A DNA stretch of 64,000 nt from an uncultured Acidobacteriota bacterium (GTDB lineage: Bacteria; Acidobacteriota; Thermoanaerobaculia; Gp7-AA8). The notes beneath the pieces were generated by a model. The model did no database searches. It had not been told where the DNA came from and saw nothing but the letters and a program-made list of their open reading frames with translations. Position 1 is the stretch's first letter, and each line of letters opens with the position of its first letter. The stretch lies in contig CAWGEI010000005.1 in assembly GCA_963821585.1 (NCBI GenBank), forward strand, positions 1,094,603 to 1,158,602. The letters run 5' to 3'. Position numbers and translations under genes: made by a program. Positions 306 through 55,736 of this stretch are shown in pieces.

Positions 306-380
306 GAGCGCAGAGGGCAGAGGGCAGAAGAATCACGACAACGTTTCGGTTCCGGCTTCTGCGCTCTGCCCTCTGCGCTC
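306..380. repeat. long hairpin with a stem made of CAGAGGG heptamers (arms 306-330 / 356-380, 1 mismatch)
   Basis: GAGCGCAGAGGGCAGAGGGCAGAAG ... CTTCTGCGCTCTGCCCTCTGCGCTC. It sits between two divergent start codons (291 and 412). Confidence 0.8.
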
Positions 381-411: not shown

Positions 412-1263
412 ATGGCCACGTTGTACTGCCCGGTCCCCATGACCGCAACGTCCCGGCGCCGCTCGCTGCCGAAAATCCTCTCAGGTCTCATCCTGCTCCT
501 CGGCGTCATCGCGCTGAAGGCCAAAGGCCTGCTCCTCCTGTTCTTCGACAAGGTCCGGGTCTTCTTCGTCAATCCCTTCGAAGGCTTCGGCACCGTGCAG
601 TACGCCATCGCGGGCGGCTCTTTCGTCGTCACCATCGCCGCCTACACCACCCAGTTCCCCCTCGGCGTCGTCACCGGCTTCGTCGGCATCACCCTGATCC
701 ACGAGATCGGCCACGCCATGGCCATCCGCGCCAAGGGCCTCCGGGCCGGCTTCATGGTCTTCATCCCCTTCATCGGCGGCGCCGTCACCATGAAAGGCCA
801 GCCGCGGACCGTCTTCGACGACGCCATCATCGGCCTGGCCGGGCCGGCTTCGCGGACTTTGGCCTCGCTCGTGATCCTGCAGGTCTACAAGTGGACGTAC
901 GACCCGCTCTACCTCCTGATCGCCTTCGTCGGGTTCGTCCTCAACCTGATGAATCTATTGCCGATCGGGATGCTCGACGGCGGCCGCATCTCCGCGGCCA
1001 TGACCAAGTGGATGTGGGTCCTCGGCGGCGGCGCGATCGTCTACAAGGTGGTCGACCAGCCCAACCCCCTGACCATCATCATTGCCGTGCTCGCCGCGTT
1101 CCAGGTCTACGCCTCGATCGTCCGCGAGAAGACCGACCCCCGTTTCTACGAGATCACCGCCTTCCAGCGCGCGGCAATTGCCGTGCTCTATTTCGGGTTG
1201 GTGATCTTCTTAGGACACCAGACCTGGATGGCGTACGACCGGCTGGAGCTCTTGAGACAGTAG
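412..1263 (+). CDS. site-2 protease family zinc metalloprotease (peptidase M50)
   Basis: HEIGHAM (HExxH) lies in a hydrophobic segment, followed by NLMNLLPIGMLDGGRI (NxxPxxxLDG). The protein is a multi-pass membrane protein. Confidence 0.85.
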   Translation: MATLYCPVPMTATSRRRSLPKILSGLILLLGVIALKAKGLLLLFFDKVRVFFVNPFEGFGTVQYAIAGGSFVVTIAAYTTQFPLGVVTGFVGITLIHEIGHAMAIRAKGLRAGFMVFIPFIGGAVTMKGQPRTVFDDAIIGLAGPASRTLASLVILQVYKWTYDPLYLLIAFVGFVLNLMNLLPIGMLDGGRISAAMTKWMWVLGGGAIVYKVVDQPNPLTIIIAVLAAFQVYASIVREKTDPRFYEITAFQRAAIAVLYFGLVIFLGHQTWMAYDRLELLRQ

Positions 1264-1327
1264 TTGGCAGTTGACAGGAGAGCACGCCCGCCCTGGTCGG
1301 GTGGGGGCCTCCTGTCAACTGCCAACT
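1262..1327. repeat. GTTGGCAGTTGACAGGAG-family hairpin, terminator-like (arms 1262-1280 / 1309-1327)
   Basis: AGTTGGCAGTTGACAGGAG ... CTCCTGTCAACTGCCAACT is a perfect 19-bp stem. The TAG stop of the M50 gene (1261-1263) is part of the repeat. Confidence 0.8.
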
Positions 1328-1355
1328 GCAAACTGCCAACCCGGATTTGATAAGC

Positions 1356-4421: not shown

Positions 4422-4462
4422 TCTCTGTGCCTCTGTGGACTCACCACAGAGGCACAGAGGAC
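4422..4462. repeat. CTCTGTG-family hairpin directly after the secA stop (terminator-like)
   Basis: GTCTCTGTGCCTCTGTGGA ctca CCACAGAGGCACAGAGGAC. Confidence 0.75.
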
Positions 4463-4682
4463 ACAGAGGAGGACGGAGACTTTTTTTCTAGGAATGCGGT
4501 GGCGCGGGCGGCCGGGCGGGTGGAGCCACCGCTCTGGTACGGAGGCGGCCCCCGTCCCGCTCTTGCCATAACCCGGGATTGTGGTGCCGGCGCCCTCGCC
4601 GGCCGTAACGCCGGCGCCTCGCCGGCCGGGAAGGCGACGCCGAGCCGCAACCAAGATTCTTGCAAACGAAGCCTCTGTGGTC

Positions 4683-4738
4683 TCTGTGGTGAACGGTCTC
4701 TTCATCGTGGCAGGAACGCAGGAGGACCGTTCACCACA
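4683..4738. repeat. CTCTGTGGTGAA-family partial element with 15-bp inverted arms
   Basis: CTGTGGTGAACGGTC (4683-4697) pairs with GACCGTTCACCACAG (4724-4738) and is preceded by CCTCTGTGGTCTCTGTGG. Confidence 0.65.
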
Positions 4739-5225: not shown

Positions 5226-5306
5226 CTCCGTCCCCTCTTGTGCTCTCTGCGCCTCTGTGGTGAATCCCACGCTCCCATTCCCCACAGAGCCACAGAGAAC
5301 ACAGAG
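5226..5306. repeat. CTCTGTG-family inverted repeat after the DUF433 gene
   Basis: CTCCGTCCCCTCTTGTGCTCTCTGCGCCTCTGTGGTGAAT ... CCACAGAGCCACAGAGAACACAGAG. Confidence 0.7.
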
Positions 5307-6617: not shown

Positions 6618-6652
6618 AAGCCTCTGTGCTCTCTGTGTCTCTGTGGTGAATC
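6618..6652. repeat. solo half-copy of the CTCTGTG...GTGGTGAAT repeat
   Basis: GCCTCTGTGCTCTCTGTGTCTCTGTGGTGAATCGG is nearly identical to the left arm at 55636-55666. No partner arm is visible. Confidence 0.7.
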
Positions 6653-8986: not shown

Positions 8987-9041
8987 CGTCCCGCTGCCGG
9001 ATCGCATGAGGCCCAGACCCTGGGGGACCCAGGCTCCGGCG

Positions 9042-9488
9042 GAGTCCTGACGTCACCAAGCCGTATGCCTCGCGAGGCACAGGCTGTGGTAACGAAACCA
9101 GACGGAGTCCTATCGTTACCAGACCGTGTGCCTCGCGAGGCACAGCCCTGTCCTAACGAAGCCAGACCGAGTCCTATCGTTACCAGACCGTGTGCCTCGC
9201 GAGGCACAGCCCTGTCCTGACGAAACCAGACCGAGTCCTATCGTTACCAGACCGTGTGCCTCGCGAGGCACAGCCCTGTCCTGACGAAACCAGACGGAGT
9301 CCCATCGTTACCAGACCGTGTGCTTCGCGAGGCACAGCCCTGTCCTGACGAAACCAGACGGAGTCCTATCGTCACCAGGCCGTGTGCTTCGCGAGGCACA
9401 GCCCTGTCCTGACGATGCCAGACGGAGTCCTATCGTCACCAGACCGTGTGCCTCGCGAGGCACAGCCTGTCGTGACGAAGGCACCCGC
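9042..9488. repeat. tandem array, 7 units of 64 bp (first unit 63 bp, last degenerate), each containing the perfect 18-bp palindrome TGTGCCTCGCGAGGCACA
   Basis: GAGTCC unit starts fall at 9042, 9105, 9169, 9233, 9297, 9361 and 9425. The units are near-identical over their full length. Confidence 0.95.
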
Positions 9489-16850: not shown

Positions 16851-18356
16851 ATGCAGCCATTGCAAGATCGGTACGACGTCGTGATTCTGGGAGGCGCCTT
16901 CAGCGGTGCGTCCGCCGCGATCCTCCTGCGCCGCGAGTGCCCCGATCTCAGCGTGCTGATCGTCGAGAAGGCCGAGCGCTTCGACGAGAAAGTGGGGGAG
17001 GCGACGACCGAGATGTCGGCGATGTTCCTCACCCGCCGCCTGGCGATGTGGCGGCACCTCGAGAACGAGCAGCTCCCGAAGGAGGGGCTGCGCTACTGGT
17101 TCTCGAACGACAAGGTGACGGGCCATGCGAACGCGAGCGAGACCGGCGGGTTCATCCGCAGCACGGTGCCGGCGTTCCAGCTCCGCCGCGACGCGCTCGA
17201 CGAGCACCTGCTCGCGACGGCGGTCGCGGAGGGCGCCGAGCTGTGGCGGAACGCGCGGGCGACAGACGTCGCGATCGGCGACTTCGAGCACCAGGTCACG
17301 GTCGAGGGACGGGTGATCTCGTGCCGCTGGCTCCTCGACGCCACGGGCCGCGCGAACTTCCTCGGCCGCAGGCTCGATCTGATCGAGCGCAATGACGAGC
17401 ATCCGACCGCCGCGATCTGGTGCCGCTGGAAGAACGTGCGGCACATCGACGACATCGCGGCGCGGGGCGGGTTTTCGGCGAGCAACGTGGGCTCGCGCCG
17501 CCTGGGCACGAATCACTACACCGGCTACGGCTACTGGATCTGGGTGATCCCCCTCGGCAACGGCGAGACGAGCATCGGCGTGGTGTTCGACAAGCGGCTG
17601 ATCGGGCTGCACCAGTCGAAGAACCGGGCCGAGGATTTCATCGGGTTCCTGAAGGCGATCCCGTCGCTGGCGGAGCTGCTCGAAGGGGCGGAGCCGCGGC
17701 TCGAAGACCTGCGGTTCTATTCGAGTCTCGCGTACGCCACGAAGCAGTACATGGGCCGCGGCTGGGCACTCCTCGGCGACGCGGCGGCGTTCCTGGATCC
17801 GTATTACTCGCCGGGGCTGGACCACGCGTCGTTCACCTCCGAGGCGACGGTGGAGATGATCAAGAAGGACCGGATGGGCGAGGACCTGACCGCGCGTATC
17901 GCGGAGCACAACGAGACGTTCGTGCGGTCGTACTGGCGGTTCTTCTACGCGGCGTACAAGGACAAGTACTACTACATGGGCGAGGCCGACCTGCTCAGCG
18001 CGGCCATGCTCATCGACACGGCGCAGTACTACATCTTCGTGGTCATCCCGGCGTACAAGTTCCTGAAGCGCTTCGACTGGATGCCGGTCCTCGGCCCGAA
18101 GCCGGCGTTCCTCAGCTACCAGATGATGCAGATGTACAACCGCCGGTTCAAAACGATCGCGGAGAAACGGCGTGCGGCGGGCCGGGCGGGGATGTACAAC
18201 GACGGACGCCGGATCGTCGCGTATTTCAACCTCGGCGTGGCGCCGCTGCAGATGGTGTTGCGCGGGGTGAAGTTGTGGCTGCGCGCGGAGTGGGGGGCGC
18301 TGTGGATGCGGCGTGTTTCGGAGACGTCACGTCCACAAGAATCGCTCGTCGGGTGA
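16851..18356 (+). CDS. FAD-dependent oxidoreductase of the flavin-dependent halogenase family
   Basis: N-terminal DVVILGGAFSG (GxGxxG), the W-I-W-V-I-P sequence matching the WxWxIP halogenase-family motif, and GDAAAFLDPYYSPGL. Confidence 0.7.
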   Translation: MQPLQDRYDVVILGGAFSGASAAILLRRECPDLSVLIVEKAERFDEKVGEATTEMSAMFLTRRLAMWRHLENEQLPKEGLRYWFSNDKVTGHANASETGGFIRSTVPAFQLRRDALDEHLLATAVAEGAELWRNARATDVAIGDFEHQVTVEGRVISCRWLLDATGRANFLGRRLDLIERNDEHPTAAIWCRWKNVRHIDDIAARGGFSASNVGSRRLGTNHYTGYGYWIWVIPLGNGETSIGVVFDKRLIGLHQSKNRAEDFIGFLKAIPSLAELLEGAEPRLEDLRFYSSLAYATKQYMGRGWALLGDAAAFLDPYYSPGLDHASFTSEATVEMIKKDRMGEDLTARIAEHNETFVRSYWRFFYAAYKDKYYYMGEADLLSAAMLIDTAQYYIFVVIPAYKFLKRFDWMPVLGPKPAFLSYQMMQMYNRRFKTIAEKRRAAGRAGMYNDGRRIVAYFNLGVAPLQMVLRGVKLWLRAEWGALWMRRVSETSRPQESLVG

Positions 18357-18779
18357 GATGCCGTGACGCGCAAGTAATCGCACGTATTCATCGCGGAACG
18401 ATGTTTTCGCGTGATGGATCTTCTGGCGTTCAATGTAGCGCGCAACGATCGCCAGTTGCGACTGGCTGACGCTGAATGCGCTGTAGCCGCGTTGCCATTC
18501 GAAGCGGGTGTGTTCGGGAAAGGTCTCGTGGATCCACTTTGAGGCGCAGCCTTTCACCTTTCCCACGATCTCGGCGGAGGATGCCGTTGGGGGCATGGAG
18601 AGGAGGATGTGCAGGTGGTCCTCGACGCCGTTGATGTTGAGGAGTTTCCCGTGCAATTCGCGGACGATGCCGCCGATGTAGGGGTACAGGCGTTCTTCGA
18701 GGGCGGGATCGATTTGCGGTTTGCGGTCCCTGGTCGAGAACACCACGTGGGTGTAGAGAGCGTTGTAGCTGTGCGGCAT
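18327..18779 (-). mobile_element. IS200/IS605-type Y1 (HUH) transposase-like gene, probable REP-associated tyrosine transposase (RAYT)
   Basis: HLHILLS (HUH) and ARYIERQ (catalytic Tyr, YIxxQ) motifs in 150 aa. No tnpB and no IS ends are seen. A REPIN-like element lies ~50 bp upstream. The 3' end overlaps the oxidoreductase 3' end by 30 nt. Confidence 0.8.
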
Positions 18780-18827
18780 GCGTATCGACGCATGCGGAAG
18801 TCCCGCGGGGATGGTACCTCGGATGTT

Positions 18828-19020
18828 CTGTCGCCCGCTACGCGGGCTCGTTTTTCGTGTCCGCGTCCCGGTTCCCCCGGCTGAAGCCGGCGGCTATTAC
18901 CTAAAGCCTGCTACGCAGGCAACCTCTTGCCCGCGTAGCGGGCAGCCAGACAATAGACCCCGGCTTCAGCCGGGGGACGCGACGAGCGCGCAAGCGGGGA
19001 GCCCGCGTAGCGGGCGACAG
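18828..19020. repeat. ~190-bp nested-palindrome (REPIN-like) element, full copy
   Basis: CTGTCGCCCGCTACGCGGGCTCGTTT ... CCCCCGGCTGAAGCCGG ... GCCCGCGTAGCGGGC ... AATAGACCCCGGCTTCAGCCGGGGG ... GAGCCCGCGTAGCGGGCGACAG. Confidence 0.9.
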
Positions 19021-19029
19021 AAACGCACC

Positions 19030-24163: not shown

Positions 24164-25714
24164 CTATTCCACCGGTTTGCGCGGGATCATCTGCTCGCGG
24201 TTGGCCGATTCCCAGACGAACGTGGCCACCACCACCGCGGCCTGCATGAGGTCTTCGCGCTGGAGGCGCTCGTAGGTGTCCCAGTTCGTGTGGTGGGTGC
24301 GCGTCGAGTACTCCACCTGGTCCTGGATGAACTGGAAGCCGGGGATGCCGGACTCGTCGAAGGGCACGTGGTCCGTGCTGCCGGTGTTGCGCATGGTCAC
24401 GGTCGTAGCGCCGATGTCGTGGAAGGGCTTGAGCCAGGCTTCGAACAGCGGCGCGGCGGCCGCGTTCTCCTGCGCGTAAATCCCGCGGATCTTGCCCGTG
24501 CCGTTGTCGACGTTGAAGTACGCCGACACCTTCGGCCAGCCGGGCTTCTTCTGCAGCTCACCCTTCTCCGTGCGCGCCCAGGACGGGAGCTTGGCCTGCT
24601 CCGGGTCCTTCGGCTCCGCGCGCTTCGCGAAGTGCTCCTCGACGTACGCGCGCGAGCCGAGGAGTCCCTGCTCCTCGCCGCTCCAGAGCGCGATGCGGAT
24701 GGTGCGCTTCGGCGTGCCGAGGGTCTTGAGGATGCGCGCGGCTTCCATCATCACGACCACGCCGGCCGCGTTGTCCGTCGCGCCCGTGCCGGTGTGCCAC
24801 GAGTCGAGGTGCGCGCCCATCATCACCAGCTCGCCCTTCTTGTCCGAGCCCGCGATGTCGGCGACGGTGTTGTACGCGTTGAGGTCCTGATCGTGGTACT
24901 GGGCGCGGATGTCGATCTCAAGCTCCACGTCGATCTTCTCGTCGATCAGGCGCGCGATGCGCGCGTAGTGCTCCGGCGCGAGGCCGATCGCGGTCACGCC
25001 GACCGGCTCATCGTCGCGCCACGTGCCGCCGCCCTGCACGCGGAACACGCCACCGTCGCCGTTGCCCGGCTGCACGACCGCGGCGATCTTCTCGTCCATC
25101 GCGAACTGCGCCAGCTGCTTGCGGAACTCGCGGCGGTTCATGAACTCCCCGCGCCGCGCCGAATCGCGCGCCTGCGGGATCTCGTACTGCGAGAGCTTCA
25201 GCAGCTCGTCGTCGTCGTAGCGCTCGAGGGCCGCCTTGTCCAGCGGCTTCATTTCCTTCGGCTCCGCGATCATGAGGATCGCGCCGGCGAACTTGCCCTT
25301 GTTCTTCTCGAGATCTTCCTTCGACTCCAGCTTGGCCTTCATCACCTTGCCGCGGATCGGGCCGGTCGTTCCCGGCGACCATGCCATCGGCAGGCCGTAC
25401 AGCTGCTGGACATCCGGGGAGAGCATGCGCACCGAGGCGTAGTCCGAAGACCAGCCGCGGCCGAACTTGAACGGCTCGAGGTGCGCGTTGACGAGACCCA
25501 TCTTCGTCAACTCGTCACGCGTCCACTCGTTCGCTTTCTTCATGTTCGGCGAGCCAGTGAGACGGCCGCCGATGCGGTCGGTGAGGGCCTCCGCGTACTC
25601 CATGACCTTGGAGTTGCGGAAACCTTCGTTGCGGATGCGGGAGACGGTCGTGAGGTCCTGGGCCGAGGCGACGACTGCTACGAACAGCACACAAAGGGTA
25701 GCCAACCACTTCAT
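24164..25714 (-). CDS. M28 family aminopeptidase with signal peptide
   Basis: MKWLATLCVLFVAVVASAQD signal peptide. Zn-ligand regions GAHLDSWHTGTGATDNAAG, WSGEEQGLLGS and STDHVPF. Confidence 0.8.
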   Translation of the reverse strand: MKWLATLCVLFVAVVASAQDLTTVSRIRNEGFRNSKVMEYAEALTDRIGGRLTGSPNMKKANEWTRDELTKMGLVNAHLEPFKFGRGWSSDYASVRMLSPDVQQLYGLPMAWSPGTTGPIRGKVMKAKLESKEDLEKNKGKFAGAILMIAEPKEMKPLDKAALERYDDDELLKLSQYEIPQARDSARRGEFMNRREFRKQLAQFAMDEKIAAVVQPGNGDGGVFRVQGGGTWRDDEPVGVTAIGLAPEHYARIARLIDEKIDVELEIDIRAQYHDQDLNAYNTVADIAGSDKKGELVMMGAHLDSWHTGTGATDNAAGVVVMMEAARILKTLGTPKRTIRIALWSGEEQGLLGSRAYVEEHFAKRAEPKDPEQAKLPSWARTEKGELQKKPGWPKVSAYFNVDNGTGKIRGIYAQENAAAAPLFEAWLKPFHDIGATTVTMRNTGSTDHVPFDESGIPGFQFIQDQVEYSTRTHHTNWDTYERLQREDLMQAAVVVATFVWESANREQMIPRKPVE

Positions 25715-27003
25715 TCCAATTCGCTCCAATCGATTGTTGTGGGAACGTTCGACTTCGCGAACAGCGAAGTCAGCATTTCCGCGGGAGTGTAAACGCGAAC
25801 GTCGCCGAGCTCACTCGGGCGCCGGTGCTTCATGGAGAACAGCGTCCGTTGCGTGACGTATTCGAAGTTCGCGTAGTAGTCGTCGTCCTTGCGCTGGTCG
25901 AACATCGCTTTCAGCGTCTCGAGCTGGCGGGTGAGGGGGTCGTCGAGGCTTCGAGTCGCCGAGTCGACGAGAGGCCCTTGACGACTCGACGACTTGTCGG
26001 CCCGGCGACTCGTTCTCGGGGGCTCCAGTCCCACCATCGCCCGGATGTCCAGCTCCGCCGGCTTCTTCCGCTTCGGCTCGCGGTGCGGCATCAGCAGCGC
26101 CGGGATCTTCAGGCAGTTCGCCTGATGGATCGCGTCGCTGCGCGTGATCCAGCCGAGGTTTGTCACCCCGCAGCGCGCCGACACGTTCCGCGTGAGATTG
26201 TCCAGGAACGGCTTCACCGCCGTTTCGAACGAGTCCTCCACGCCGTTGAACAGATTCAGCACGTAGTGAACGCGGAACTCGTCGATCGTCGTCTGCACCG
26301 TCCGCGTGATCGGGTGATCGCCGAGGTTCTCGGCCAGATCGAAGCCGAACGCGTCGAGGTTCTGCACCGACGAGTCGTACACGTCCTCCACCTGATCGAT
26401 CAGCTCGTTGATCAGCTTGAACGAGAACGCGCTGTCCGGGACCGTGTCGAAGAACGGCGAGCTCTTACTGAAGATCAGGCGCAGCTTCCGGAAGAGGATC
26501 GCCTTCACGATGTCCGAGGCGGCGAGCGTTGCGCTCGGGAGGTGCGGCGTGAAGACCAGGACCCCCGAATTCGAGAACGGGAGGAAGTCGATCACGTTCG
26601 CGTCCAGGCCCGCCCGCATGTCCAGGATCACGTAATCCGCCGGCAGCGTGTTGATCGCCTCGATCAGCTTCGCCTTGTGCGCCGCGCCGAAGTTCGTGAT
26701 CTCCTCGATGAGGTGCAGCGGCCCCGCGACGAAGCCGAAGTTGCTGTAGCGCTTCTCCGGATCGAGGCGGTCGTCGAGCGTGGTCACACAGTTCGCGAGC
26801 GGCTCCCCGCGGCGGAAGAAATGGTAGAGATCCTTCCCGATCGGGACGTCGATGGCGTTGCGGATCGCGGACGTGCCGGTGTCGAGATCGACGAGGATGG
26901 TGCGTCCCTGGCGAGAGAGCGCGAGCGCGAAATTGATGGCGAACGTGGTCTTGCCCACGCCGCCCTTCCCGGACGAGACAGGGATGATGCGCTTGATCGC
27001 CAC
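25711..27003 (-). CDS. MinD/ParA-family P-loop ATPase with a ~170-aa C-terminal extension
   Basis: Deviant Walker A SSGKGGVGKTT and ILDMRAGLD (Walker B-like). A GTG start at 27003 was chosen, since upstream track sequence overlaps the crp-like gene on the other strand. The stop overlaps the M28 gene start. Confidence 0.7.
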   Translation of the reverse strand: MAIKRIIPVSSGKGGVGKTTFAINFALALSRQGRTILVDLDTGTSAIRNAIDVPIGKDLYHFFRRGEPLANCVTTLDDRLDPEKRYSNFGFVAGPLHLIEEITNFGAAHKAKLIEAINTLPADYVILDMRAGLDANVIDFLPFSNSGVLVFTPHLPSATLAASDIVKAILFRKLRLIFSKSSPFFDTVPDSAFSFKLINELIDQVEDVYDSSVQNLDAFGFDLAENLGDHPITRTVQTTIDEFRVHYVLNLFNGVEDSFETAVKPFLDNLTRNVSARCGVTNLGWITRSDAIHQANCLKIPALLMPHREPKRKKPAELDIRAMVGLEPPRTSRRADKSSSRQGPLVDSATRSLDDPLTRQLETLKAMFDQRKDDDYYANFEYVTQRTLFSMKHRRPSELGDVRVYTPAEMLTSLFAKSNVPTTIDWSELE

Positions 27004-27042
27004 CAGACTCAGTCTAACAACAGTTACAATTCCGCCACCCTC

Positions 27043-27726
27043 ATGCAAACCTCCTTCTTCAGAAAATTTCCCCTCTTCGCGGATCTGGACGACCGCGAGC
27101 TGGCGGCGATCGCCGCGGTGGCCAAGAGCCGCCGCTACGCGAAAGACGAGGTTGTTTTCTATGCCGACGAGAGCGGAGACATCTTCTGCCTGATCCGCGA
27201 AGGGCAGGTGAAGGTCACGATGATCTCGCCCGAGGGCAAGGAGATCATCCTCAAGCTCCTCGGTCCCGGAGACTTCTTCGGCGAGATGGCGCTGCTCGAC
27301 GACGAGCCGCGCTCCGCCACCGTCGTCTCCACCGAGCCGCTCGAGCTGGTGACCATCTGGCGGAACGACTTCCTGCAGATCCTCGCCGAGAACTTCACCC
27401 TCACGCGCAAAGTGCTGGCCGAGCTGTCGCGCCGCCTGCGCAGTGCGTCCAGCCGCATCGAGTCGCTGGCGACGATGGACGTCTACGGCCGCCTGGCGCG
27501 CTTCTTCCTCGACCTCGCGCGCGACCAGGGCAAGGTCCTCGACAACGGCTACATCGCCGTCACGCGCCCGACGCACCAGGCCATGGCCAACATGATCGGC
27601 ACGTCCCGCGAGACCGTCTCCCGCCTCATCCACGACCTGATGCGGCAGAACCTCCTGATCTCCGAGGGAAAGACGATCTATCTGAAGAAGACGGCGATCG
27701 AGCAGTTCAAGGAAGAAGCAACGTAG
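27043..27726 (+). CDS. CRP/FNR family transcriptional regulator
   Basis: cNMP-binding domain (GDFFGEMALLD...RSATV) and a C-terminal HTH (MIGTSRETVSRLIHDL). Confidence 0.9.
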   Translation: MQTSFFRKFPLFADLDDRELAAIAAVAKSRRYAKDEVVFYADESGDIFCLIREGQVKVTMISPEGKEIILKLLGPGDFFGEMALLDDEPRSATVVSTEPLELVTIWRNDFLQILAENFTLTRKVLAELSRRLRSASSRIESLATMDVYGRLARFFLDLARDQGKVLDNGYIAVTRPTHQAMANMIGTSRETVSRLIHDLMRQNLLISEGKTIYLKKTAIEQFKEEAT

Positions 27727-27727
27727 A

Positions 27728-27790
27728 AGTCCTGAGTCCTCAGTCCTGAGTCCTGAGTAGGGCGGGACTCAGGACTCAGGACTCAGGACT
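27728..27790. repeat. hairpin built of GTCCTGA heptamers (arms 27728-27758 / 27767-27790)
   Basis: AGTCCTGAGTCCTCAGTCCTGAGTCCTGAGT agggcggg ACTCAGGACTCAGGACTCAGGACT. It starts 2 nt after the crp-like stop and ends 5 nt before the next ATG. Confidence 0.85.
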
Positions 27791-27795
27791 CGTTC

Positions 27796-28365
27796 ATGCG
27801 CCACATCCCCAATATCCTGACCTGCGCCCGCTTAGTGCTGGTGCCGTGCTTCCTCTTCGCGTCGATGCGGGGGATGTTCGTCGTGGCGTTCGTGATCTTC
27901 GTCTCCGCCGCGGTCACCGATATTCTCGACGGCATGATCGCGCGGCGGTTGAACGTGAAGTCGCGTCTCGGGGCGCTGCTCGATCCGGCGGCCGACAAGA
28001 CGCTGATGGTGTGCGGGTTCATCTACTACACGTTCGGGGACAACGTTCCGCGGCTGCCGCTGCCGGGATGGCTGACGTTCACGGTGTTCATCCGCGATTT
28101 CCTGATCGCGGCCTTCGCCTATCTGATGTACACGCGCGTCCACATCACGCGCTTCCCGCCGACCTGGGCGGGGAAGACGTCGACGGTGATTCAGGCCGTG
28201 ACGCTGGCGGCGACGGTGGCGGTGAATGCGTTCCTGCCGCAGCTCCGCGTTTTCGCCGAACTGCTCTTCCGGCTGTCGCTCGTCATGACCCTGTTTTCGG
28301 GCTGGGGATACATGCGCCGCGCGTCGCTGATGCTGCGCGAAGACACCCTTCCCGCGCAGGCTTGA
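27796..28365 (+). CDS. pgsA: CDP-alcohol phosphatidyltransferase (PgsA-like)
   Basis: DILDGMIARRLNVKSRLGALLDPAADK matches the DG(x)2AR...G(x)3D(x)3D motif. 189 aa, multi-pass. Confidence 0.8.
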   Translation: MRHIPNILTCARLVLVPCFLFASMRGMFVVAFVIFVSAAVTDILDGMIARRLNVKSRLGALLDPAADKTLMVCGFIYYTFGDNVPRLPLPGWLTFTVFIRDFLIAAFAYLMYTRVHITRFPPTWAGKTSTVIQAVTLAATVAVNAFLPQLRVFAELLFRLSLVMTLFSGWGYMRRASLMLREDTLPAQA

Positions 28366-28631: not shown

Positions 28632-28725
28632 CAGTTGACAGTTCGCAGTTGGCAGTTGACAGGAACCATCGGCCGAAGCCGCGTCCCTGAGCTCCTGTCA
28701 ACTGCCAACTGTCAACTGCCAACTG
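28632..28725. repeat. GTTGGCAGTTGACAGG-family hairpin (33-nt arms of CAGTTGN heptamers)
   Basis: CAGTTGACAGTTCGCAGTTGGCAGTTGACAGGA ... TCCTGTCAACTGCCAACTGTCAACTGCCAACTG. Confidence 0.85.
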
Positions 28726-28731
28726 AAGACT

Positions 28732-30003
28732 ATGACCGTTCTTAATTACGAAGAGCTTTCCCCCGTCCAGAAGACCATCGAAGTCGAGATCCCTGCCGCT
28801 CTGCTGACCCGCGAGGCGGACCGCGTGACGAACGAGTTCGGCCGCCAGGCCAACGTTCCCGGTTTCCGTCCCGGCAAGATCCCGGCGAGCGTGATCCGTT
28901 CGCGCTTCGCGAAGGAGATCCAGGAGGAAGTGGTCACCCGCGTTCTCGGGGAATCCTTCCGCCACGCGATGCAGGAGAAGGGGCTCGAGCCGGTCGGTGA
29001 GCCGCGCCTGGAGCACATCGATCCGTTCATCGAGGGCGCGCCGATGAAGTACAAGGCGGTCTTCGAAGTGAAGCCGCAGATCGACCTCGGCGAGTACCGC
29101 GGCATCGAGGTCTCGGAGCCGACGATCGAGGTGACGGAGACGGACGTCGACGCGATGATCGAGCGCCTGCGCGATCAGGCCAGCGCGTACCGCGTCGAGA
29201 CCGAGCGCGGGCTCGACGACGGCGACTTCGCCGTGATCGAGATCGCCTCCTCCGCCGACGACATCGAGACCAAGACCGACGCCGGCCACTTCAAGATGGG
29301 CGAGGAGACGCCGCTGCCCGAGCTGCACGACGAGCTGCGCGGCAAGAAGGCCGGCGAGGTGGCCTCGTTCGACAAGGCCTACGGCGAGGACGCGAGCCAG
29401 GAAGGATGGCGCGGCAAGACCATCCACCACGACGTCACGCTGAAAGAGATCCGCATCCAGGAGAAGCCCGAGGTCAACGACGAGTTCGCGAAATCCGTCG
29501 GCGGCTGGGACACGGTCGCGCTGATGCGCGAGACCATCGAGGGCGACATCCGCAAGCACCGCGAGGTCGAGGCCCAGCGCTTCAAACGCACCCAGGTCGG
29601 CGAGAAGCTGCTCGCCGCGCACACCTTCGACGTGCCGGACACGCTGGTCGACGAAGAGCTCGGGAAGTCGCTGAACAACTACGCGCGCTACCTCGCGTCG
29701 CAGGGAGTGAACCTGGAGCAGGCGGAGATCGACTGGCGCAAGATCGGGGAGGAGTTCCGCCCCGAGGCCGTCAAGCGCGTGAAGCGGTCGCTGATCCTCG
29801 AAGCGATCGCGAAGAAAGAAGGACTCGACGTGAGCGACGTGGAAGTCGACGCCGAGATCCGCCGCGCCGCCCGCGAGCAGGAGCGCGAGTTCGCCGACGT
29901 GAAGCACCACCTCAAGCACGAAGGCGGCTACGAAGCGCTGCGCGGGTCCCTGGCGCAGGAGCGGGCGCTGGAGCTGGTGCTGAGCGAGGCGAAGGCGCAC
30001 TGA
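28732..30003 (+). CDS. tig: trigger factor
   Basis: The N-terminal ribosome-binding region contains GFRPGKIPASVIRSRF. Full-length Tig architecture, located upstream of clpP-clpX-lon. Confidence 0.95.
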   Translation: MTVLNYEELSPVQKTIEVEIPAALLTREADRVTNEFGRQANVPGFRPGKIPASVIRSRFAKEIQEEVVTRVLGESFRHAMQEKGLEPVGEPRLEHIDPFIEGAPMKYKAVFEVKPQIDLGEYRGIEVSEPTIEVTETDVDAMIERLRDQASAYRVETERGLDDGDFAVIEIASSADDIETKTDAGHFKMGEETPLPELHDELRGKKAGEVASFDKAYGEDASQEGWRGKTIHHDVTLKEIRIQEKPEVNDEFAKSVGGWDTVALMRETIEGDIRKHREVEAQRFKRTQVGEKLLAAHTFDVPDTLVDEELGKSLNNYARYLASQGVNLEQAEIDWRKIGEEFRPEAVKRVKRSLILEAIAKKEGLDVSDVEVDAEIRRAAREQEREFADVKHHLKHEGGYEALRGSLAQERALELVLSEAKAH

Positions 30004-30008
30004 AAAGG

Positions 30009-30079
30009 CGTGACCCGTTGCCCGTGACCCGTGACCTGTCCGTGGAAGCCGGGCAACGGGCAACGGATCACGGGTCACG
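30009..30079. repeat. imperfect hairpin of CGTGACC / CGTTGCC heptamers after tig
   Basis: CGTGACCCGTTGCCCGTGACCCGTGACC ... GGGCAACGGGCAACGGATCACGGGTCACG. Confidence 0.7.
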
Positions 30080-30807: not shown

Positions 30808-32058
30808 ATGTCGAAGAAGGGGAACAGCGGCGACGTCCTTCGTTGCAGCTTCTGCAACAAGTCACAGCGTGACGTCAAGAAGTTGATCGCCGGGCCCACC
30901 GTCTATATCTGCGATGAGTGCGTAGACATCTGTCTCGACATCATCGCGGAGGATCGCAAGGACGAGCCGGGCGCGCTGGAAGGCGCCGGGCACCTGCCGA
31001 AGCCCAAGGAGATCAAGGACTTCCTCGATCTCTACGTCATCGGCCAGGAGCGCGCCAAGAAGAAGCTCGCGGTCGCTGTGTACAACCACTACAAGCGGAT
31101 CGACTACCAGTCGCGGAACACGCGCCAGGACGTCGAGCTGCAGAAGTCGAACATCCTCCTGATCGGCCCCACCGGCACCGGCAAGACTCTGCTCGCGCAG
31201 ACTCTGGCCCGGATGCTCTCGGTGCCGTTCACGATTGTCGACGCGACCACGCTCACCGAGGCCGGCTATGTCGGTGAGGACGTCGAGAACATCATCCTCA
31301 AGCTCTACCAGGCCGCCGGCAACGACAAGGAAAAGACCCAGCGCGGCATCGTCTACATCGACGAGGTCGACAAGATCTGCCGCAAGGGCGACAACCCGTC
31401 GATCACGCGCGACGTGAGCGGCGAGGGCGTCCAGCAGGCCCTGCTGAAGATCCTCGAGGGCACGGTCGCCAACGTTCCGCCGCAGGGCGGCCGCAAGCAC
31501 CCCCACCAGGAGTTCATCCAGATCGACACGACGAACATCCTCTTCATCTGCGGAGGCGCGTTCGTGGGCCTGGACGGCGTCATCGAGCGCCGCCTGTCCC
31601 AGACGTCGATGGGCTTCGGCGCGAAGATCGCCTCGAAGAAGGAGAGGAAGACCGGCGAGCTGCTCGCGCAGTCGCATCCGGAAGACCTCATCCGCTTCGG
31701 CCTGATCCCGGAGTTCGTCGGCCGCCTGCCGGTGGTCGCGACGCTGGCCGAGCTGGACAAGGCCGCGCTCATCGAGATCCTCCGCGAGCCGAAGAACTCC
31801 CTGGTCCGCCAGTACCAGACCATCATGGGCTTCGAGAGCGTCGAGCTCCGCTTCACGGACGACGCCCTCGAGGCGATCGCCGAGGAAGCGCTGAAGCGCA
31901 ACGTCGGCGCGCGCGGCCTGAAGATCATCATCGAAGAGCTGATGCTCGAGATGATGTACACGATCCCCTCGGAGCACTCGATCACGGAGTGCGTGATCAC
32001 GAAGGAAGTCGTGGAGAATCGCACCCAGCCGATCACGCTTTACAAGAAAGCGGGGTAG
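30808..32058 (+). CDS. clpX: ATP-dependent Clp protease ATP-binding subunit ClpX
   Basis: Zinc-finger [26 protein letters not shown], Walker A GPTGTGKT, and the pore loop GYVG. Confidence 0.97.
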
Positions 32059-32183
32059 TTGGCAGTCTGTAGTTGGCAGTTCACAGGAGAGAACACCCAT
32101 GACGGGCCGCGAAAGCGGCCCGTTTCGTTTTGAACCACTTCGTATTCCCGCTCCTGTCAACTGCAAACTGCAAACTGCCAACT
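32057..32183. repeat. GTTGGCAG-family hairpin (arms 32057-32089 / 32151-32183) enclosing a canonical terminator
   Basis: AGTTGGCAGTCTGTAGTTGGCAGTTCACAGGAG ... CTCCTGTCAACTGCAAACTGCAAACTGCCAACT. The clpX TAG stop is the first 2 nt of the repeat context TAGTTGGCAG. Confidence 0.85.
32102..32131 (+). terminator. intrinsic terminator after clpX
   Basis: ACGGGCCGC gaaa GCGGCCCGT followed by TTCGTTTT. Confidence 0.75.
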
Positions 32184-43711: not shown

Positions 43712-43770
43712 GGCACGATTCTCCGTCTGAAAGATTCGGCCTGAGCCAGGGGAGGCCGCTGTCGTCGTGA

Positions 43771-43985
43771 GAAAGATCTGATTGACGAAGAGATCGATCC
43801 GATCGATGAAGAGAAAGATCTGATCGATGAAGAGATCGATCTGATCGACGAAGAGAAAGATCTGATCGATGAAGAGATCGATCTGATTGACGAAGAGGAA
43901 GATCTGATCGACGAAGAGAAAGATCTGATGGATGAAGAGATCGACCCGATCGATGAAGAGAAAGATCCGATCGATGAAGAGATCT
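43771..43985. repeat. tandem array of 10 x 21 bp (alternating GAAAGATCTGATCGATGAAGA / GATCGATCTGATCGACGAAGA), very GATC-dense
   Basis: Units start at 43771, 43792, 43813 ... 43960, giving a 42-bp higher-order period. GC is lower than the surroundings. Confidence 0.95.
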
Positions 43986-55623: not shown

Positions 55624-55736
55624 CTCTCCGTCCCCCTCTGTGCTCTCTGTGTCTCTGTGGTGAATACCCAAGTGCCTCGCGCGTGGCGCGTTCGTATTCA
55701 CCACAGAGACACAGAGATACAGAAGGGGACGGAGAG
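55624..55736. repeat. CTCTGTG...GTGGTGAAT family, complete inverted pair (43- and 42-nt arms)
   Basis: CTCTCCGTCCCCCTCTGTGCTCTCTGTGTCTCTGTGGTGAATA ... TATTCACCACAGAGACACAGAGATACAGAAGGGGACGGAGAG. Confidence 0.9.

What the first reader, a model, noticed from the sequence alone, without database searches (positions are those of the whole stretch)
27728..27790. Shared architecture: long intergenic hairpins whose stems are tandem 7-nt units, in several unrelated sequence families
At least five sites have 20-33-nt hairpin arms that are themselves tandem heptamers. They are (CAGAGGG)n at 306-380, (GTCCTGA)n at 27728-27790, (CGTGACC/CGTTGCC)n at 30009-30079, and (CAGTTGN)n at 1262-1327, 28632-28725 and 32057-32183. 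The CTCTGTG family is similar but has 8-9-nt spacing. The heptamer sequences are unrelated to each other, yet the design is the same. That points to a common generating mechanism or a common structural requirement rather than a single mobile sequence. Slippage of 7-nt units would preserve pairing in register. Most sites follow stop codons and are terminator-like, but 306-380 lies between divergent starts. The right arm of 27728-27790 ends 5 nt before the pgsA-like ATG, so it would occlude any ribosome-binding site there. I do not recognise this as a described element class.
Basis: seen in the sequence. Interest (0 to 1): 0.6.

Follow-up and report, generated by a model that had tools for sequence, protein, structure and literature searches.

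The report
Gene-less copies of heptamer-armed hairpin cassettes
The long hairpins between genes, whose stems are runs of a 7-base word, are real and are gene-less miniature copies of a mobile-looking cassette whose full-length form carries a small four-helix-bundle gene known from ribosomal-RNA "intervening sequences"; this ties a decades-old puzzle (bacterial heptamer repeats) to a protein family of unknown function.

Summary
All six sites are real, very stable hairpins (-43 to -72 kcal/mol) with arms built of tandem 7-nt units.

The design is strongly enriched genome-wide. Among 1336 long hairpins, 89 have period-7 arms, 15 period 8 and 15 period 9. No other period occurs, and none appears in shuffles.

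The slippage idea is not supported. Each family is a discrete dispersed repeat with sharp ends and a fixed 4-5 units per arm. Five positions of each unit are conserved and 1-2 vary. Loops are unconserved.

The hairpins start a median 4 nt after stop codons, lack U-tracts, and almost always have the G-rich arm first.

Close relatives show clean filled and empty sites, and different families occupy the same spacer.

Decisive link: 4 of 5 PF05635 genes in this genome (23S-rRNA intervening-sequence protein, Avd-like) lie between such arms. So do 28 of 30 in 25 related genomes, against 1 of 74 controls. One own copy carries the same arms as three window hairpins. The protein tree matches the arm-unit families perfectly.

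The hairpins are therefore best read as ORF-less members of IVS-like cassettes. Protein binding to the arms, RNase III cutting and the means of spread are inferred. Paired heptamer arrays are already in print (Geobacter 2009, Xanthomonas 2015); I found no paper making the link to this gene family.

The parts
27728..27790 (.). Hairpin with arms (AGTCCTG)4 / (CAGGACT)4 and a 7-nt loop, filling the spacer between a Crp-like gene (stop at 27724-27726) and a pgsA-like gene (ATG at 27796).
   Evidence: RNA fold -54.6 kcal/mol, z = -9.0. The same unit flanks a PF05635 gene in a relative (L114).
28632..28725 (.). CAGTTGN-family hairpin (4 units + CAGGA / TCCTG + 4 units, 28-nt loop) between a tRNA 3' end and the trigger-factor start codon.
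   Evidence: Its arms align with those flanking the genome's own PF05635 gene. The same spacer is empty in several relatives.
32057..32183 (.). CAGTTGN-family hairpin between clpX and lon. The clpX stop codon TAG is the first three bases of the first unit. The 63-nt loop holds a small GC hairpin followed by a T-run.
1262..1340 (.). CAGTTGN-family hairpin after an M50-peptidase-like gene. The 5' arm is cut to 2 units by the coding region (stop TAG inside the first unit); the 3' arm keeps 4 units.
30009..30079 (.). (CGTGACC/CGTTGCC)n hairpin inserted directly after the trigger-factor stop codon, upstream of clpP. The stem has periodic mismatches.
   Evidence: z = -4.0. It reads as a clean ~85-nt insertion relative to the closest relative L001. 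The same unit family flanks the own PF05635 gene at C3:1607071-1607385.
306..380 (.). (CAGAGGG/CAGAGCG)n + CAGAAG hairpin between divergent gene starts.
   Evidence: A related unit (CAGGGSG) flanks a PF05635 gene in relative L100.
27043..27726 (+). Crp/Fnr-like regulator gene. Its stop codon lies 1 nt before the 27728 hairpin.
   Evidence: Pfam cNMP_binding + HTH_Crp_2; gene model.
27796..28365 (+). pgsA-like CDP-alcohol phosphatidyltransferase gene. Its whole 5' leader, including the SD-like AGGA at -12..-9, lies in the 3' arm of the hairpin.
   Evidence: Pfam PF01066 from residue 3; fold.
28732..30003 (+). Trigger factor gene, with a heptamer hairpin on each side.
55636..55723 (.). Example of the related class with 8-9-nt units: (CTCTGTGNN)n ... 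(CACAGAGN)n.
   Evidence: Genome-wide there are 53 hairpins with period-8/9 arms.

Best explanation
The window hairpins are ORF-less (miniature) members of several families of one cassette class. A full-length cassette is about 450-560 nt. It has a G-rich arm of 4-5 heptamer modules, a PF05635/TIGR02436 four-helix-bundle gene, and the complementary C-rich arm. [quoted passage not shown] This is the same build as the ORF-bearing intervening sequences (IVS) of 23S rRNA, but placed in spacers between protein and tRNA genes.

Each PF05635 lineage has its own heptamer word. The many short hairpins carry the arms without the gene.

Shown here: the physical association, co-diversification of protein and arm unit, fixed module number, gain, loss and replacement at orthologous spacers, placement right after gene 3' ends, and absence of U-tracts.

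Inferred: (a) the pentameric protein reads the heptamer modules, roughly one per protomer, and is needed for spread or upkeep of both full and miniature copies; (b) in transcripts the ~30-bp stems are cut by RNase III, as shown for rRNA IVSs, or block exonucleases, so they separate or insulate neighbouring cistrons rather than terminate transcription; (c) where the stem spans stop to start, as at crp-pgsA, translation of the downstream gene depends on the upstream ribosome melting the stem base.
For: - Own genome: 4 of 5 PF05635 genes lie between tandem-repeat inverted arms, each of a different unit family: CAGTTGN, AAAGGNN, CCCGTKR and GAAAATT.
- The CAGTTGN-armed gene copy has the same arms as window hairpins 28632, 32057 and 1262. 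The 526-nt element folds with the arms as its closing stem.
- Relatives: 28 of 30 PF05635 genes from 25 genomes are flanked by inverted repeats, and 24 of the 30 pairs of arms have period 7. Controls gave 1 of 74 with an inverted repeat and 0 with period 7.
- All 34 ORFs are intact. The protein tree needs the minimum possible number of arm-family changes (20). None of 300 label shuffles was as low (mean 25.9). Pairs from different genomes with the same arm family share 66% identity, against 39% for pairs with different arm families. Paralogues within one genome share 30-51% and always have different arms.
- Relative G129 has a single PF05635 gene. It sits between the arms of that genome's dominant hairpin family (203+226 pattern matches).
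- The families are discrete elements. CAGTTGN has 4+4 units in 37 of 48 copies with sharp ends. Loops run 6-131 nt and are unconserved.
- Turnover: L022 and L036 show reciprocal filled and empty states at two adjacent spacers. The window has a clean ~85-nt insert relative to L001. L003 is filled where L005 is empty. Three different families occupy the same tRNA-tig spacer in the nearest relatives.
- The protein matches PDB 2GSC at E = 4e-23 (five chains in the entry), matches TIGR02436, and weakly matches Avd.
- Literature: the Coxiella IVS carries a PF05635 ORF, a 28-bp stem, heptameric repeats and RNase III cuts in the stem (PMC4990558).
Against: - No enzyme, target-site duplication or actual movement was seen. 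PF05635 has no known catalytic activity.
- The GAGTSCT and CAGAGSG families, including the finding's own 27728 site, have no gene-bearing copy in this assembly. It is 88% complete. Gene-bearing copies with these arms were found only in relatives.
- PF05635 genes are also present in relatives whose tig region has few hairpins, and in 69 of 121 Acidobacteriota genomes. The gene alone therefore does not predict hairpin abundance.
- Agreement between tree and arm unit would also follow from plain linkage, without any protein-arm recognition.
- Sense-strand mismatches are G.T 50 versus A.C 51, so there is no wobble signature of selection on the RNA stem.
- Gene context rests on my own crude gene caller.
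Confidence: 0.7

Rival explanations
1. Pre-existing host hairpins came first, as regulatory or structural elements of the REP/STRR kind. PF05635 genes are separate small cassettes that home into the apical loops of such hairpins. On this reading the short hairpins are targets, not derivatives.
For: Other palindromic repeats are nested in the loops of two CAGTTGN hairpins, so loops do accept insertions. Gene-less copies outnumber gene-bearing ones by 50:1 to more than 100:1. Some abundant families have no gene copy in this genome.
Against: Protein phylogeny follows arm family across genomes. Insertion would therefore have to be specific for the cognate arms, which again implies that the protein or cassette recognises the heptamer word. 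28 of 30 genes are armed, and the ORFs fill the space between the arms compactly.
Confidence: 0.15
2. One reading: independent in-situ origin at each site by replication slippage of 7-nt units plus arm-to-arm template switching, under selection only for a stable stem. There would be no dispersal of a defined element.
For: The two arms mirror each other's unit variants more than chance allows: 316 mismatches against 548 +/- 17 after permuting units. Period 7 recurs in unrelated sequences.
Against: Unit number is fixed (4+4 in 37 of 48) with sharp ends. Each family has a non-repeat inner core, CAGGAG/CTCCTG or CAGAAG/CTTCTG. Identical ordered strings of variant units occur at dozens of loci. Relatives show clean whole-element insertions. 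The same families occur in different genomes.
Confidence: 0.04
3. REP/REPIN-type repeats mobilised by a RAYT (Y1/IS200-like) transposase.
For: The repeats are extragenic, palindromic and multi-copy, and the genome has three Y1_Tnp genes, one of them in the window at 18327-18779.
Against: No heptamer array lies within 3 kb of any Y1 gene; the window's Y1 gene is flanked by a different nested palindrome. G129 has more than 100 hairpins and no Y1_Tnp hit, while hairpin-poor relatives have 6-10.
Confidence: 0.03
4. Host cis-regulatory sites, such as binding arrays for a global DNA-binding regulator (as proposed for Geobacter) or functional terminators and attenuators kept by selection, with the PF05635 association incidental.
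For: Certain spacers are occupied far more often than random expectation: tRNA-tig 33 of 50, crp-pgsA 22 of 50, tig-clpP 17 of 48. Flanking genes have high coding-score density (80th percentile, p = 9e-16). Geobacter authors proposed IHF/HU-type binding (PMC2700814).
Against: The word at one orthologous spacer differs among close relatives (at least 12 units at one spacer), which does not fit a conserved regulator site. There are no U-tracts. Sister genomes have empty alleles. Control segments show the PF05635 association is far from incidental.
Confidence: 0.08

Closest known systems
ORF-bearing intervening sequences (IVS) of 23S rRNA (Coxiella burnetii helix 45, Leptospira, Xanthomonas, Brucella), PMC4990558
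   Same: The same gene family (PF05635/S23p) sits in the loop of a ~28-bp stem formed by terminal inverted repeats. Heptameric repeats are reported in the stem-proximal region. Size is similar: 428-444 nt against about 450-560 nt here. Mobility has long been suspected but never shown.
   Different: Here the elements lie in spacers between protein and tRNA genes, not in rRNA helices. Most copies have no ORF. Several cognate families coexist in one genome. RNase III cutting was not tested here.
Paired tandem-repeat 'global regulator binding sites' of Geobacter metallireducens (classes 1-3; Aklujkar 2009, PMC2700814)
   Same: [quoted passage not shown] Each site is 3-5 tandem repeats of 7-9 nt (MTYCTGA x5, GTTGCTYN x4, TCTCCGTS[Y] x3), and one pair lies between the two genes proB and proA. 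The unit MTYCTGA resembles GTCCTGA here.
   Different: They were interpreted as IHF/HU-type protein sites, and no link to a PF05635 gene was drawn. I could not fetch that genome to test polarity or gene association.
Xanthomonas GGGAATC heptamer repeats with 70-75 convergent inverted pairs (Rehm 2015, PMC4692102)
   Same: Intergenic tandem heptamers, mostly four units, often paired so that the G-rich array comes first on each strand and a stem-loop can form.
   Different: A single unit family, studied as a G-quadruplex former. Unit numbers of 2-26 were reported. No gene cargo was described.
REP / REPIN with RAYT transposases
   Same: Many short extragenic palindromes plus a few copies of a cognate gene flanked by the same repeats. 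The repeats are family-specific and lie in 3' UTRs and operon spacers. REPs act as mRNA stabilisers and partial Rho-dependent terminators without U-tracts (bioRxiv 10.64898/2026.03.23.713779).
   Different: The associated gene is a four-helix-bundle protein with no known nuclease or transposase fold, not a Y1 HUH enzyme. The arms are modular (7-nt phased). The RAYT link was tested and not met.
Cyanobacterial STRR and TAACTGA heptamer direct repeats (Mazel 1990, from my own knowledge; MacGregor 2015, PMC4679880)
   Same: Intergenic tandem heptamers, often abutting start codons, carrying stop codons in all three frames. The words are similar (TAACTGA against CAACTGY).
   Different: Those are mostly direct arrays with variable copy number; only one inverted pair was reported in the Beggiatoaceae genome.
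DGR accessory protein Avd (Bordetella phage BPP-1)
   Same: A distant homologue of PF05635 proteins (PMC10053308; NF033474 hit at 32.8 bits, below its cut-off). From my own knowledge it is a pentameric, basic, nucleic-acid-binding barrel.
   Different: Avd works with a reverse transcriptase. No RT is associated with these cassettes.

Membership tests
IVS-type PF05635 cassette (as in 23S rRNA intervening sequences) | Terminal inverted repeats forming a long (~25-35 bp) stem | tested here: met
   Six window sites fold at -43 to -72 kcal/mol with arms of 20-35 nt. The genome-wide arm median is 29-30 nt.
IVS-type PF05635 cassette (as in 23S rRNA intervening sequences) | PF05635 (S23p) ORF between the arms | tested here: not met
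   The six window copies have loops of 7-63 nt and no ORF. The feature is met by same-family copies elsewhere: C3:1280738-1281055 between CAGTTGN arms, and 28 of 30 PF05635 genes in relatives. The window copies are therefore filed as gene-less derivatives, not as full members.
IVS-type PF05635 cassette (as in 23S rRNA intervening sequences) | Heptamer repeats in the stem region | tested here: met
   Described for Coxiella in PMC4990558.
IVS-type PF05635 cassette (as in 23S rRNA intervening sequences) | Located inside an rRNA helix | tested here: not met
   All six lie between protein or tRNA genes. rRNA genes of this genome were not examined.
IVS-type PF05635 cassette (as in 23S rRNA intervening sequences) | Excised from the transcript by RNase III | not testable with these tools
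Only the stem geometry is compatible.
REP/REPIN-RAYT | Cognate Y1 (RAYT) transposase gene flanked by the repeats and present in genomes that hold them | tested here: not met
   No array lies within 3 kb of the three Y1_Tnp genes. G129 has more than 100 hairpins and no Y1_Tnp.
Intrinsic (Rho-independent) terminator | GC-rich stem followed directly by a U-tract | tested here: not met
   Only 7% have at least 6 T in the next 12 nt, with a mean of 2.65 T. Only 12% lie between convergent genes, against 36% of other long hairpins.
MITE | Terminal inverted repeats plus target-site duplication plus a related transposase-bearing parent | tested here: inconclusive
   TIR-like arms are present. No duplication is visible in three filled/empty comparisons. 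The gene-bearing parent encodes PF05635, not a known transposase. Distant arm pairs enclose only ordinary genes.
Simple-sequence (slippage) repeat / STRR-type array | Tandem heptamers in intergenic DNA | tested here: met
Simple-sequence (slippage) repeat / STRR-type array | Copy number varying freely between loci and strains | tested here: not met
   4+4 units in 37 of 48 CAGTTGN copies. Arms are mostly 4-5 units. Orthologous copies in L001/L003 and L002/L004 have equal unit numbers.

The most novel reading that the evidence does not exclude
PF05635 four-helix-bundle pentamers are sequence-specific readers of phased heptamer words, about one word per protomer. Gene, arms and gene-less miniatures together form a REPIN/RAYT-like self-propagating system without a classical transposase. 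It colonises transcribed junctions: rRNA helices, tRNA-mRNA boundaries and cistron boundaries. That would explain much of the unexplained heptanucleotide repeat DNA of bacteria, including Xanthomonas GGGAATC pairs, the Geobacter paired sites and possibly STRR and TAACTGA. It would also give the 30-year-old 'IVS protein' a function.
Probability: 0.3. Interest if true: 0.9.

Novelty: new variant of a known kind. Interest (0 to 1): 0.72.

Why it matters
Heptanucleotide repeats have been known to be over-represented in bacterial genomes since 1990-2007 without an explanation. The PF05635 '23S rRNA intervening-sequence protein' has had a solved structure since 2006 without a function. In this clade the two are one system: each protein lineage travels with its own 7-nt word, and gene-less copies of the arms fill operon spacers next to core genes such as tig, clpP, clpX and lon. 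This gives ready-made cognate and non-cognate protein-repeat pairs for direct binding tests. It also points to a widespread way of structuring polycistronic RNAs, through RNase III-type stems that begin at stop codons and can bury the next gene's ribosome-binding site. For annotation, these hairpins should not be called terminators, and ORF ends inside them may be element-derived.

Tried and rejected
- G.U versus A.C mismatch asymmetry on the sense strand, as a test for RNA-level selection: 50 versus 51, so uninformative to negative.
- T-tract test for intrinsic terminators: negative.
- Search for long autonomous elements between distant arm pairs. The two best candidates hold ordinary genes (alpha/beta hydrolase, GlgE) and no transposase.
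- RAYT/Y1 transposase link: negative in the own genome and by phylogenetic profile.
- A local origin of the AACATTY unit from native flanking sequence, suggested by the L022 'empty' site keeping 1.5 units: rejected. The family is dispersed genome-wide in all three genomes, so L022 is a deletion scar.
- The idea that stop codons in the 5' arm are the primary design feature. They are enriched (114 of 179 against 16 of 179 arms) but absent from whole families (CAGAGGG, GGCGGTT). They probably follow from the G-rich-first polarity.
- My first gene callers mis-assigned the Crp region. This was fixed with a best-start model and checked against Pfam.
- The first PF05635 tree was wrong because minus-strand loci were not reverse-complemented. 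It was redone.
- Rfam found only two tRNAs in the window.
- A telomere-like reading (two G-strand extensions joined head to head) was considered for the polarity rule. It was dropped for lack of any supporting enzyme or template.

Full report
OBSERVATION. The six sites are as described. Tandem Repeats Finder lists period-7 arrays in both arms of each. All six fold into single long stems at -42.7 to -71.5 kcal/mol, with z = -4.0 to -9.7 against dinucleotide shuffles. The window is C5:1094603-1158602 of an 8.17-Mb, 66% G+C assembly in 5 contigs. The trigger factor is 88% identical to soil MAGs labelled Thermoanaerobaculia, phylum Acidobacteriota.

IS IT MORE THAN CHANCE?
- Exact tandem arrays of at least 3 copies number 129 at period 7, against 1 in a Markov-3 shuffle. 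Periods 8, 9 and 10-11 give 17, 3 and 0.
- A looser scan finds 323 heptamer arrays in about a dozen unit families.
- I built my own inverted-repeat catalogue. Of 1336 hairpins with arms of at least 18 nt, 89 have arm autocorrelation of at least 0.8 at period 7, 15 at period 8 and 15 at period 9. None does at any other period from 3 to 12, and none does after shuffling the arms.
- With a looser threshold there are 179 heptameric hairpins.

ANATOMY.
- The families are discrete elements, not free-running microsatellites. The CAGTTGN family has 48 anchored copies. Its consensus is AGTTGaC AGTTgGC AGTTGGC AGTTGAC AGGA, then a loop, then the exact complement. Both arms have four units in 37 of 48 copies, and the 3' arm has four in 46 of 48. 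Conservation falls to background one base beyond the fourth unit.
- Within a unit five positions are nearly invariant and two vary.
- The CAGAGSG family has a similar build with an inner CAGAAG/CTTCTG core.
- Arms of all families are mostly 4-5 units.
- Loops run 6-131 nt and are essentially unrelated between copies. Two loops contain other nested palindromes.
- Unit variants are mirrored between the two arms more than chance allows: 316 mismatches against 548 +/- 17 after permuting units.
- The order of arms is polar. Within 300 nt the G-rich arm precedes the C-rich arm 96 times and never the reverse, for three families. The 5' arm has G>C in 139 hairpins and C>G in 32 in this genome, against 636:497 for other hairpins. 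In 55 related loci the count is 62:3, or 29:2 counting each distinct unit once.
- Because a palindrome reads alike on both strands, this polarity has a simple meaning. In the sense of any flanking gene, the G-rich arm follows stop codons and the C-rich arm precedes start codons.
- As a likely by-product, 5' arms carry stop codons in 114 of 179 hairpins and 3' arms in 16 of 179.

CONTEXT. These figures use my own gene caller, checked against Pfam at the Crp/ParA overlap.
- 112 hairpins lie between co-directional genes, 22 between divergent genes and 19 between convergent genes. 26 fall in called ORFs.
- Other long hairpins in the genome are 36% convergent.
- For 126 confident gene 3' ends facing a hairpin, the stem starts a median 4 nt after the stop. 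It starts within 12 nt in 82% and at or inside the stop codon in 25%. This holds whatever the loop length.
- TAG is used by 17 of 33 genes next to CAGTTGN-type hairpins, against 24% genome-wide, because the outermost unit is often TAGTTGG.
- Only 7% are followed by a T-tract, so they are not intrinsic terminators.
- Sense-strand mismatches are G.T 50 and A.C 51, giving no wobble signature.
- Flanking genes have high coding-score density: the median is at the 80th percentile, p = 9e-16.
- At 27728-27790 the stem runs from 1 nt after the Crp-like stop to 5 nt before the pgsA-like ATG. It contains the only SD-like AGGA.

COMPARATIVE EVIDENCE.
- In 55 orthologous tig loci from other MAGs of the same family, heptamer arrays dominate again: 116 at period 7, against 12 at period 5, 12 at period 8 and 2 at period 9, in 533 kb.
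- The same spacers are occupied far more often than the roughly 5-8% expected at random: pgsA-tRNA-tig 33 of 50, crp-pgsA 22 of 50, tig-clpP 17 of 48, clpX-lon 8 of 38 and clpP-clpX 5 of 44. At least a dozen different units occur at a single spacer.
- On a Tig tree, presence is patchy and the family at the tRNA-tig spacer changes between near neighbours: CAGTTGN in the window, AGCTGTT in L001 and L003, GCTGAGT in L002 and L004, and none in L005 and L009.
- Sister genomes L022 and L036 are reciprocal. L036 is filled at tRNA-tig and empty at tig-clpP; L022 is the opposite, with a 1.5-unit scar.
- Relative to L001, the window's tig-clpP hairpin is a clean ~85-nt insertion between TGA and a conserved TGTGGTTAGATA motif.
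- No target duplication is visible in any of these comparisons.
- The units are genome-wide families in the relatives too. GAATGTT gives 57+58, 12+12 and 40+44 pattern matches in three genomes. GAATGMAGAAYGCAGAAYG gives 203+226 in G129, often with 0 mismatches, so a fixed 'sentence' of variant units is copied.
- Outside the family, tig regions of 4 other class members and 9 of 11 other Acidobacteriota had no arrays. One genome, G112, had CTCCTGA arrays.

THE LINK TO A GENE.
- One G129 copy with a 330-nt 'loop' contains an ORF that starts at the inner end of the 5' arm and stops in the first bases of the 3' arm. It is a TIGR02436 four-helix-bundle protein.
- The own genome has five PF05635 hits. 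Four lie between tandem-repeat inverted arms, each of a different family: CAGTTGN, AAAGGNN, CCCGTKR and GAAAATT. The last gene is degenerate.
- The CAGTTGN-armed copy aligns arm for arm with window hairpins 28632, 32057 and 1262. It folds with the arms as the closing stem.
- The CCCGTKR arms match the window's 30009 hairpin.
- In 30 PF05635 loci from 25 related genomes, 28 genes are flanked by inverted repeats, and 24 of the 30 pairs of arms have period 7. Three of the other four flanked pairs have period 6-9; the fourth shows no clear period. Of 74 control segments, one had an inverted repeat and none had period 7. The arms include AGTCCTG (the unit of the finding's own site) and CAGGGSG.
- After correcting a strand error, all 34 ORFs are intact and the protein tree follows the arm unit exactly. 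It needs 20 label changes, the minimum possible, and no shuffle of 300 was as low. Same-unit pairs from different genomes share 66% identity, against 39% otherwise. Paralogues within a genome share 30-51% and never share arms.
- G129 has one PF05635 gene, and it carries the arms of that genome's 100-plus hairpins.
- The protein matches the Xanthomonas XCC0516 structure 2GSC at E = 4e-23 (five chains in the entry) and weakly matches DGR Avd.
- PF05635 occurs in 69 of 121 sampled Acidobacteriota genomes. Heptamer arrays near tig were seen in 5 of 12 sampled PF05635-positive genomes and 0 of 8 negative ones. This is suggestive only.

WHAT IS KNOWN.
- Paired tandem 7-9-nt repeats on opposite strands, in three families, were catalogued in Geobacter metallireducens as putative global-regulator sites (PMC2700814).
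- 70-75 convergent GGGAATC pairs, mostly of four units, were reported in Xanthomonas (PMC4692102).
- TAACTGA direct repeats abutting start codons were reported in Beggiatoaceae and cyanobacteria (PMC4679880).
- The Coxiella 23S rRNA IVS is a PF05635 ORF inside a 28-bp stem with heptameric repeats, cut by RNase III within the stem, and has long been suspected to be a mobile element (PMC4990558).
- PF05635 resembles Avd (PMC10053308).
- I found no paper linking dispersed gene-less heptamer hairpins to PF05635. Earlier AI notes of this scan report the gene-plus-arms layout in other phyla. I had reached the link independently and tested it here.

MECHANISM.
- Shown: one cassette class with cognate gene-arm families; gene-less copies sharing the arms; turnover at gene 3' ends; no U-tract; no RAYT.
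- Inferred, in decreasing confidence:
  (i) the short hairpins derive from or depend on the gene-bearing cassettes (about 0.7-0.85);
  (ii) as RNA the ~30-bp stems are RNase III or exonuclease-barrier elements that split or insulate cistrons, by analogy with rRNA IVSs and REPs (about 0.5);
  (iii) the pentameric protein reads 4-5 heptamer modules (about 0.45);
  (iv) stems spanning stop to start impose translational coupling (about 0.4 for crp-pgsA).
- How copies spread is unknown.

LIMITS. All genomes are MAGs. Gene context rests on a home-made caller. Samples of relatives are 11-20-kb loci. No transcript or read data could be used. Agreement between protein and arms could reflect linkage alone.

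Noticed in passing
window 18327-18779 (-) and 18826-19022: An IS200/RAYT-like Y1 transposase gene (PF01797, 95 bits) sits next to a nested composite palindrome: GCCCGCTACGCGGGC arms with a 24-nt perfect outer inverted repeat 149 nt apart. This is a different repeat family from the heptamer hairpins.
   Followed up: partly
window 9040-9479: A 64-bp tandem repeat, 6.9 copies, 92% matches (TRF score 705), with a 43-bp sub-period. Not examined further.
   Followed up: no
window 43769-43982: A 21-bp tandem repeat, 10.2 copies (GAGAAAGATCTGATCGATGAA), rich in GATC within a GC-rich genome.
   Followed up: no
window 32099-32131 (inside the loop of hairpin 32057-32183): A canonical-looking small terminator, GACGGGCCGCGAAAGCGGCCCGTTTCGTTTT, lies inside the loop. 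The heptamer arms bracket what may be the native clpX terminator.
   Followed up: no
window 25711-27726: Two long ORFs overlap on opposite strands. Pfam shows a ParA/AAA_31-like gene on the minus strand and a Crp-like gene on the plus strand sharing a very short divergent spacer near 27003-27043. Longest-ORF callers mis-assign this region.
   Followed up: partly
window 4445-4470, 4673-4690, 5282-5306, 6622-6645, 55636-55723: CACAGAG/CTCTGTG units at 8-9-nt spacing occur in both arm orders, unlike the polar heptamer families. Genome-wide, 53 hairpins have period-8/9 arms, including (ATAGGACNN)n and (CGAGTCGN)n. Some PF05635 genes in relatives have period-8/9 arms (GGTTCCTC, L098 and L111).
   Followed up: partly
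window 1242-1263: The last codons of the M50-peptidase-like gene (GCTCTTGAGACAGTAG) resemble degenerate CAGTTGN units. The C-terminus and stop codon may be element-derived.
   Followed up: no
L077 (G112, another Acidobacteriota family): (CTCCTGA/CTCCTGT)n arrays near tig resemble Geobacter's MTYCTGA and the window's GTCCTGA. Similar words recur across distant lineages.
   Followed up: no
G000:C4:1095196-1095345 (L119): A truncated PF05635 remnant (model positions 30-79) still lies between (GAAAATT)4 arms. It may be an intermediate between gene-bearing and gene-less copies.
   Followed up: partly
G000 genome-wide, (GGCGGTT)n arrays: This family is mostly unpaired: 16 G-rich and 8 C-rich clusters, with only one pair within 300 nt. 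Some heptamer arrays therefore exist as half elements. Unpaired G-rich arrays tend to sit next to stop codons and unpaired C-rich arrays next to start codons.
   Followed up: partly
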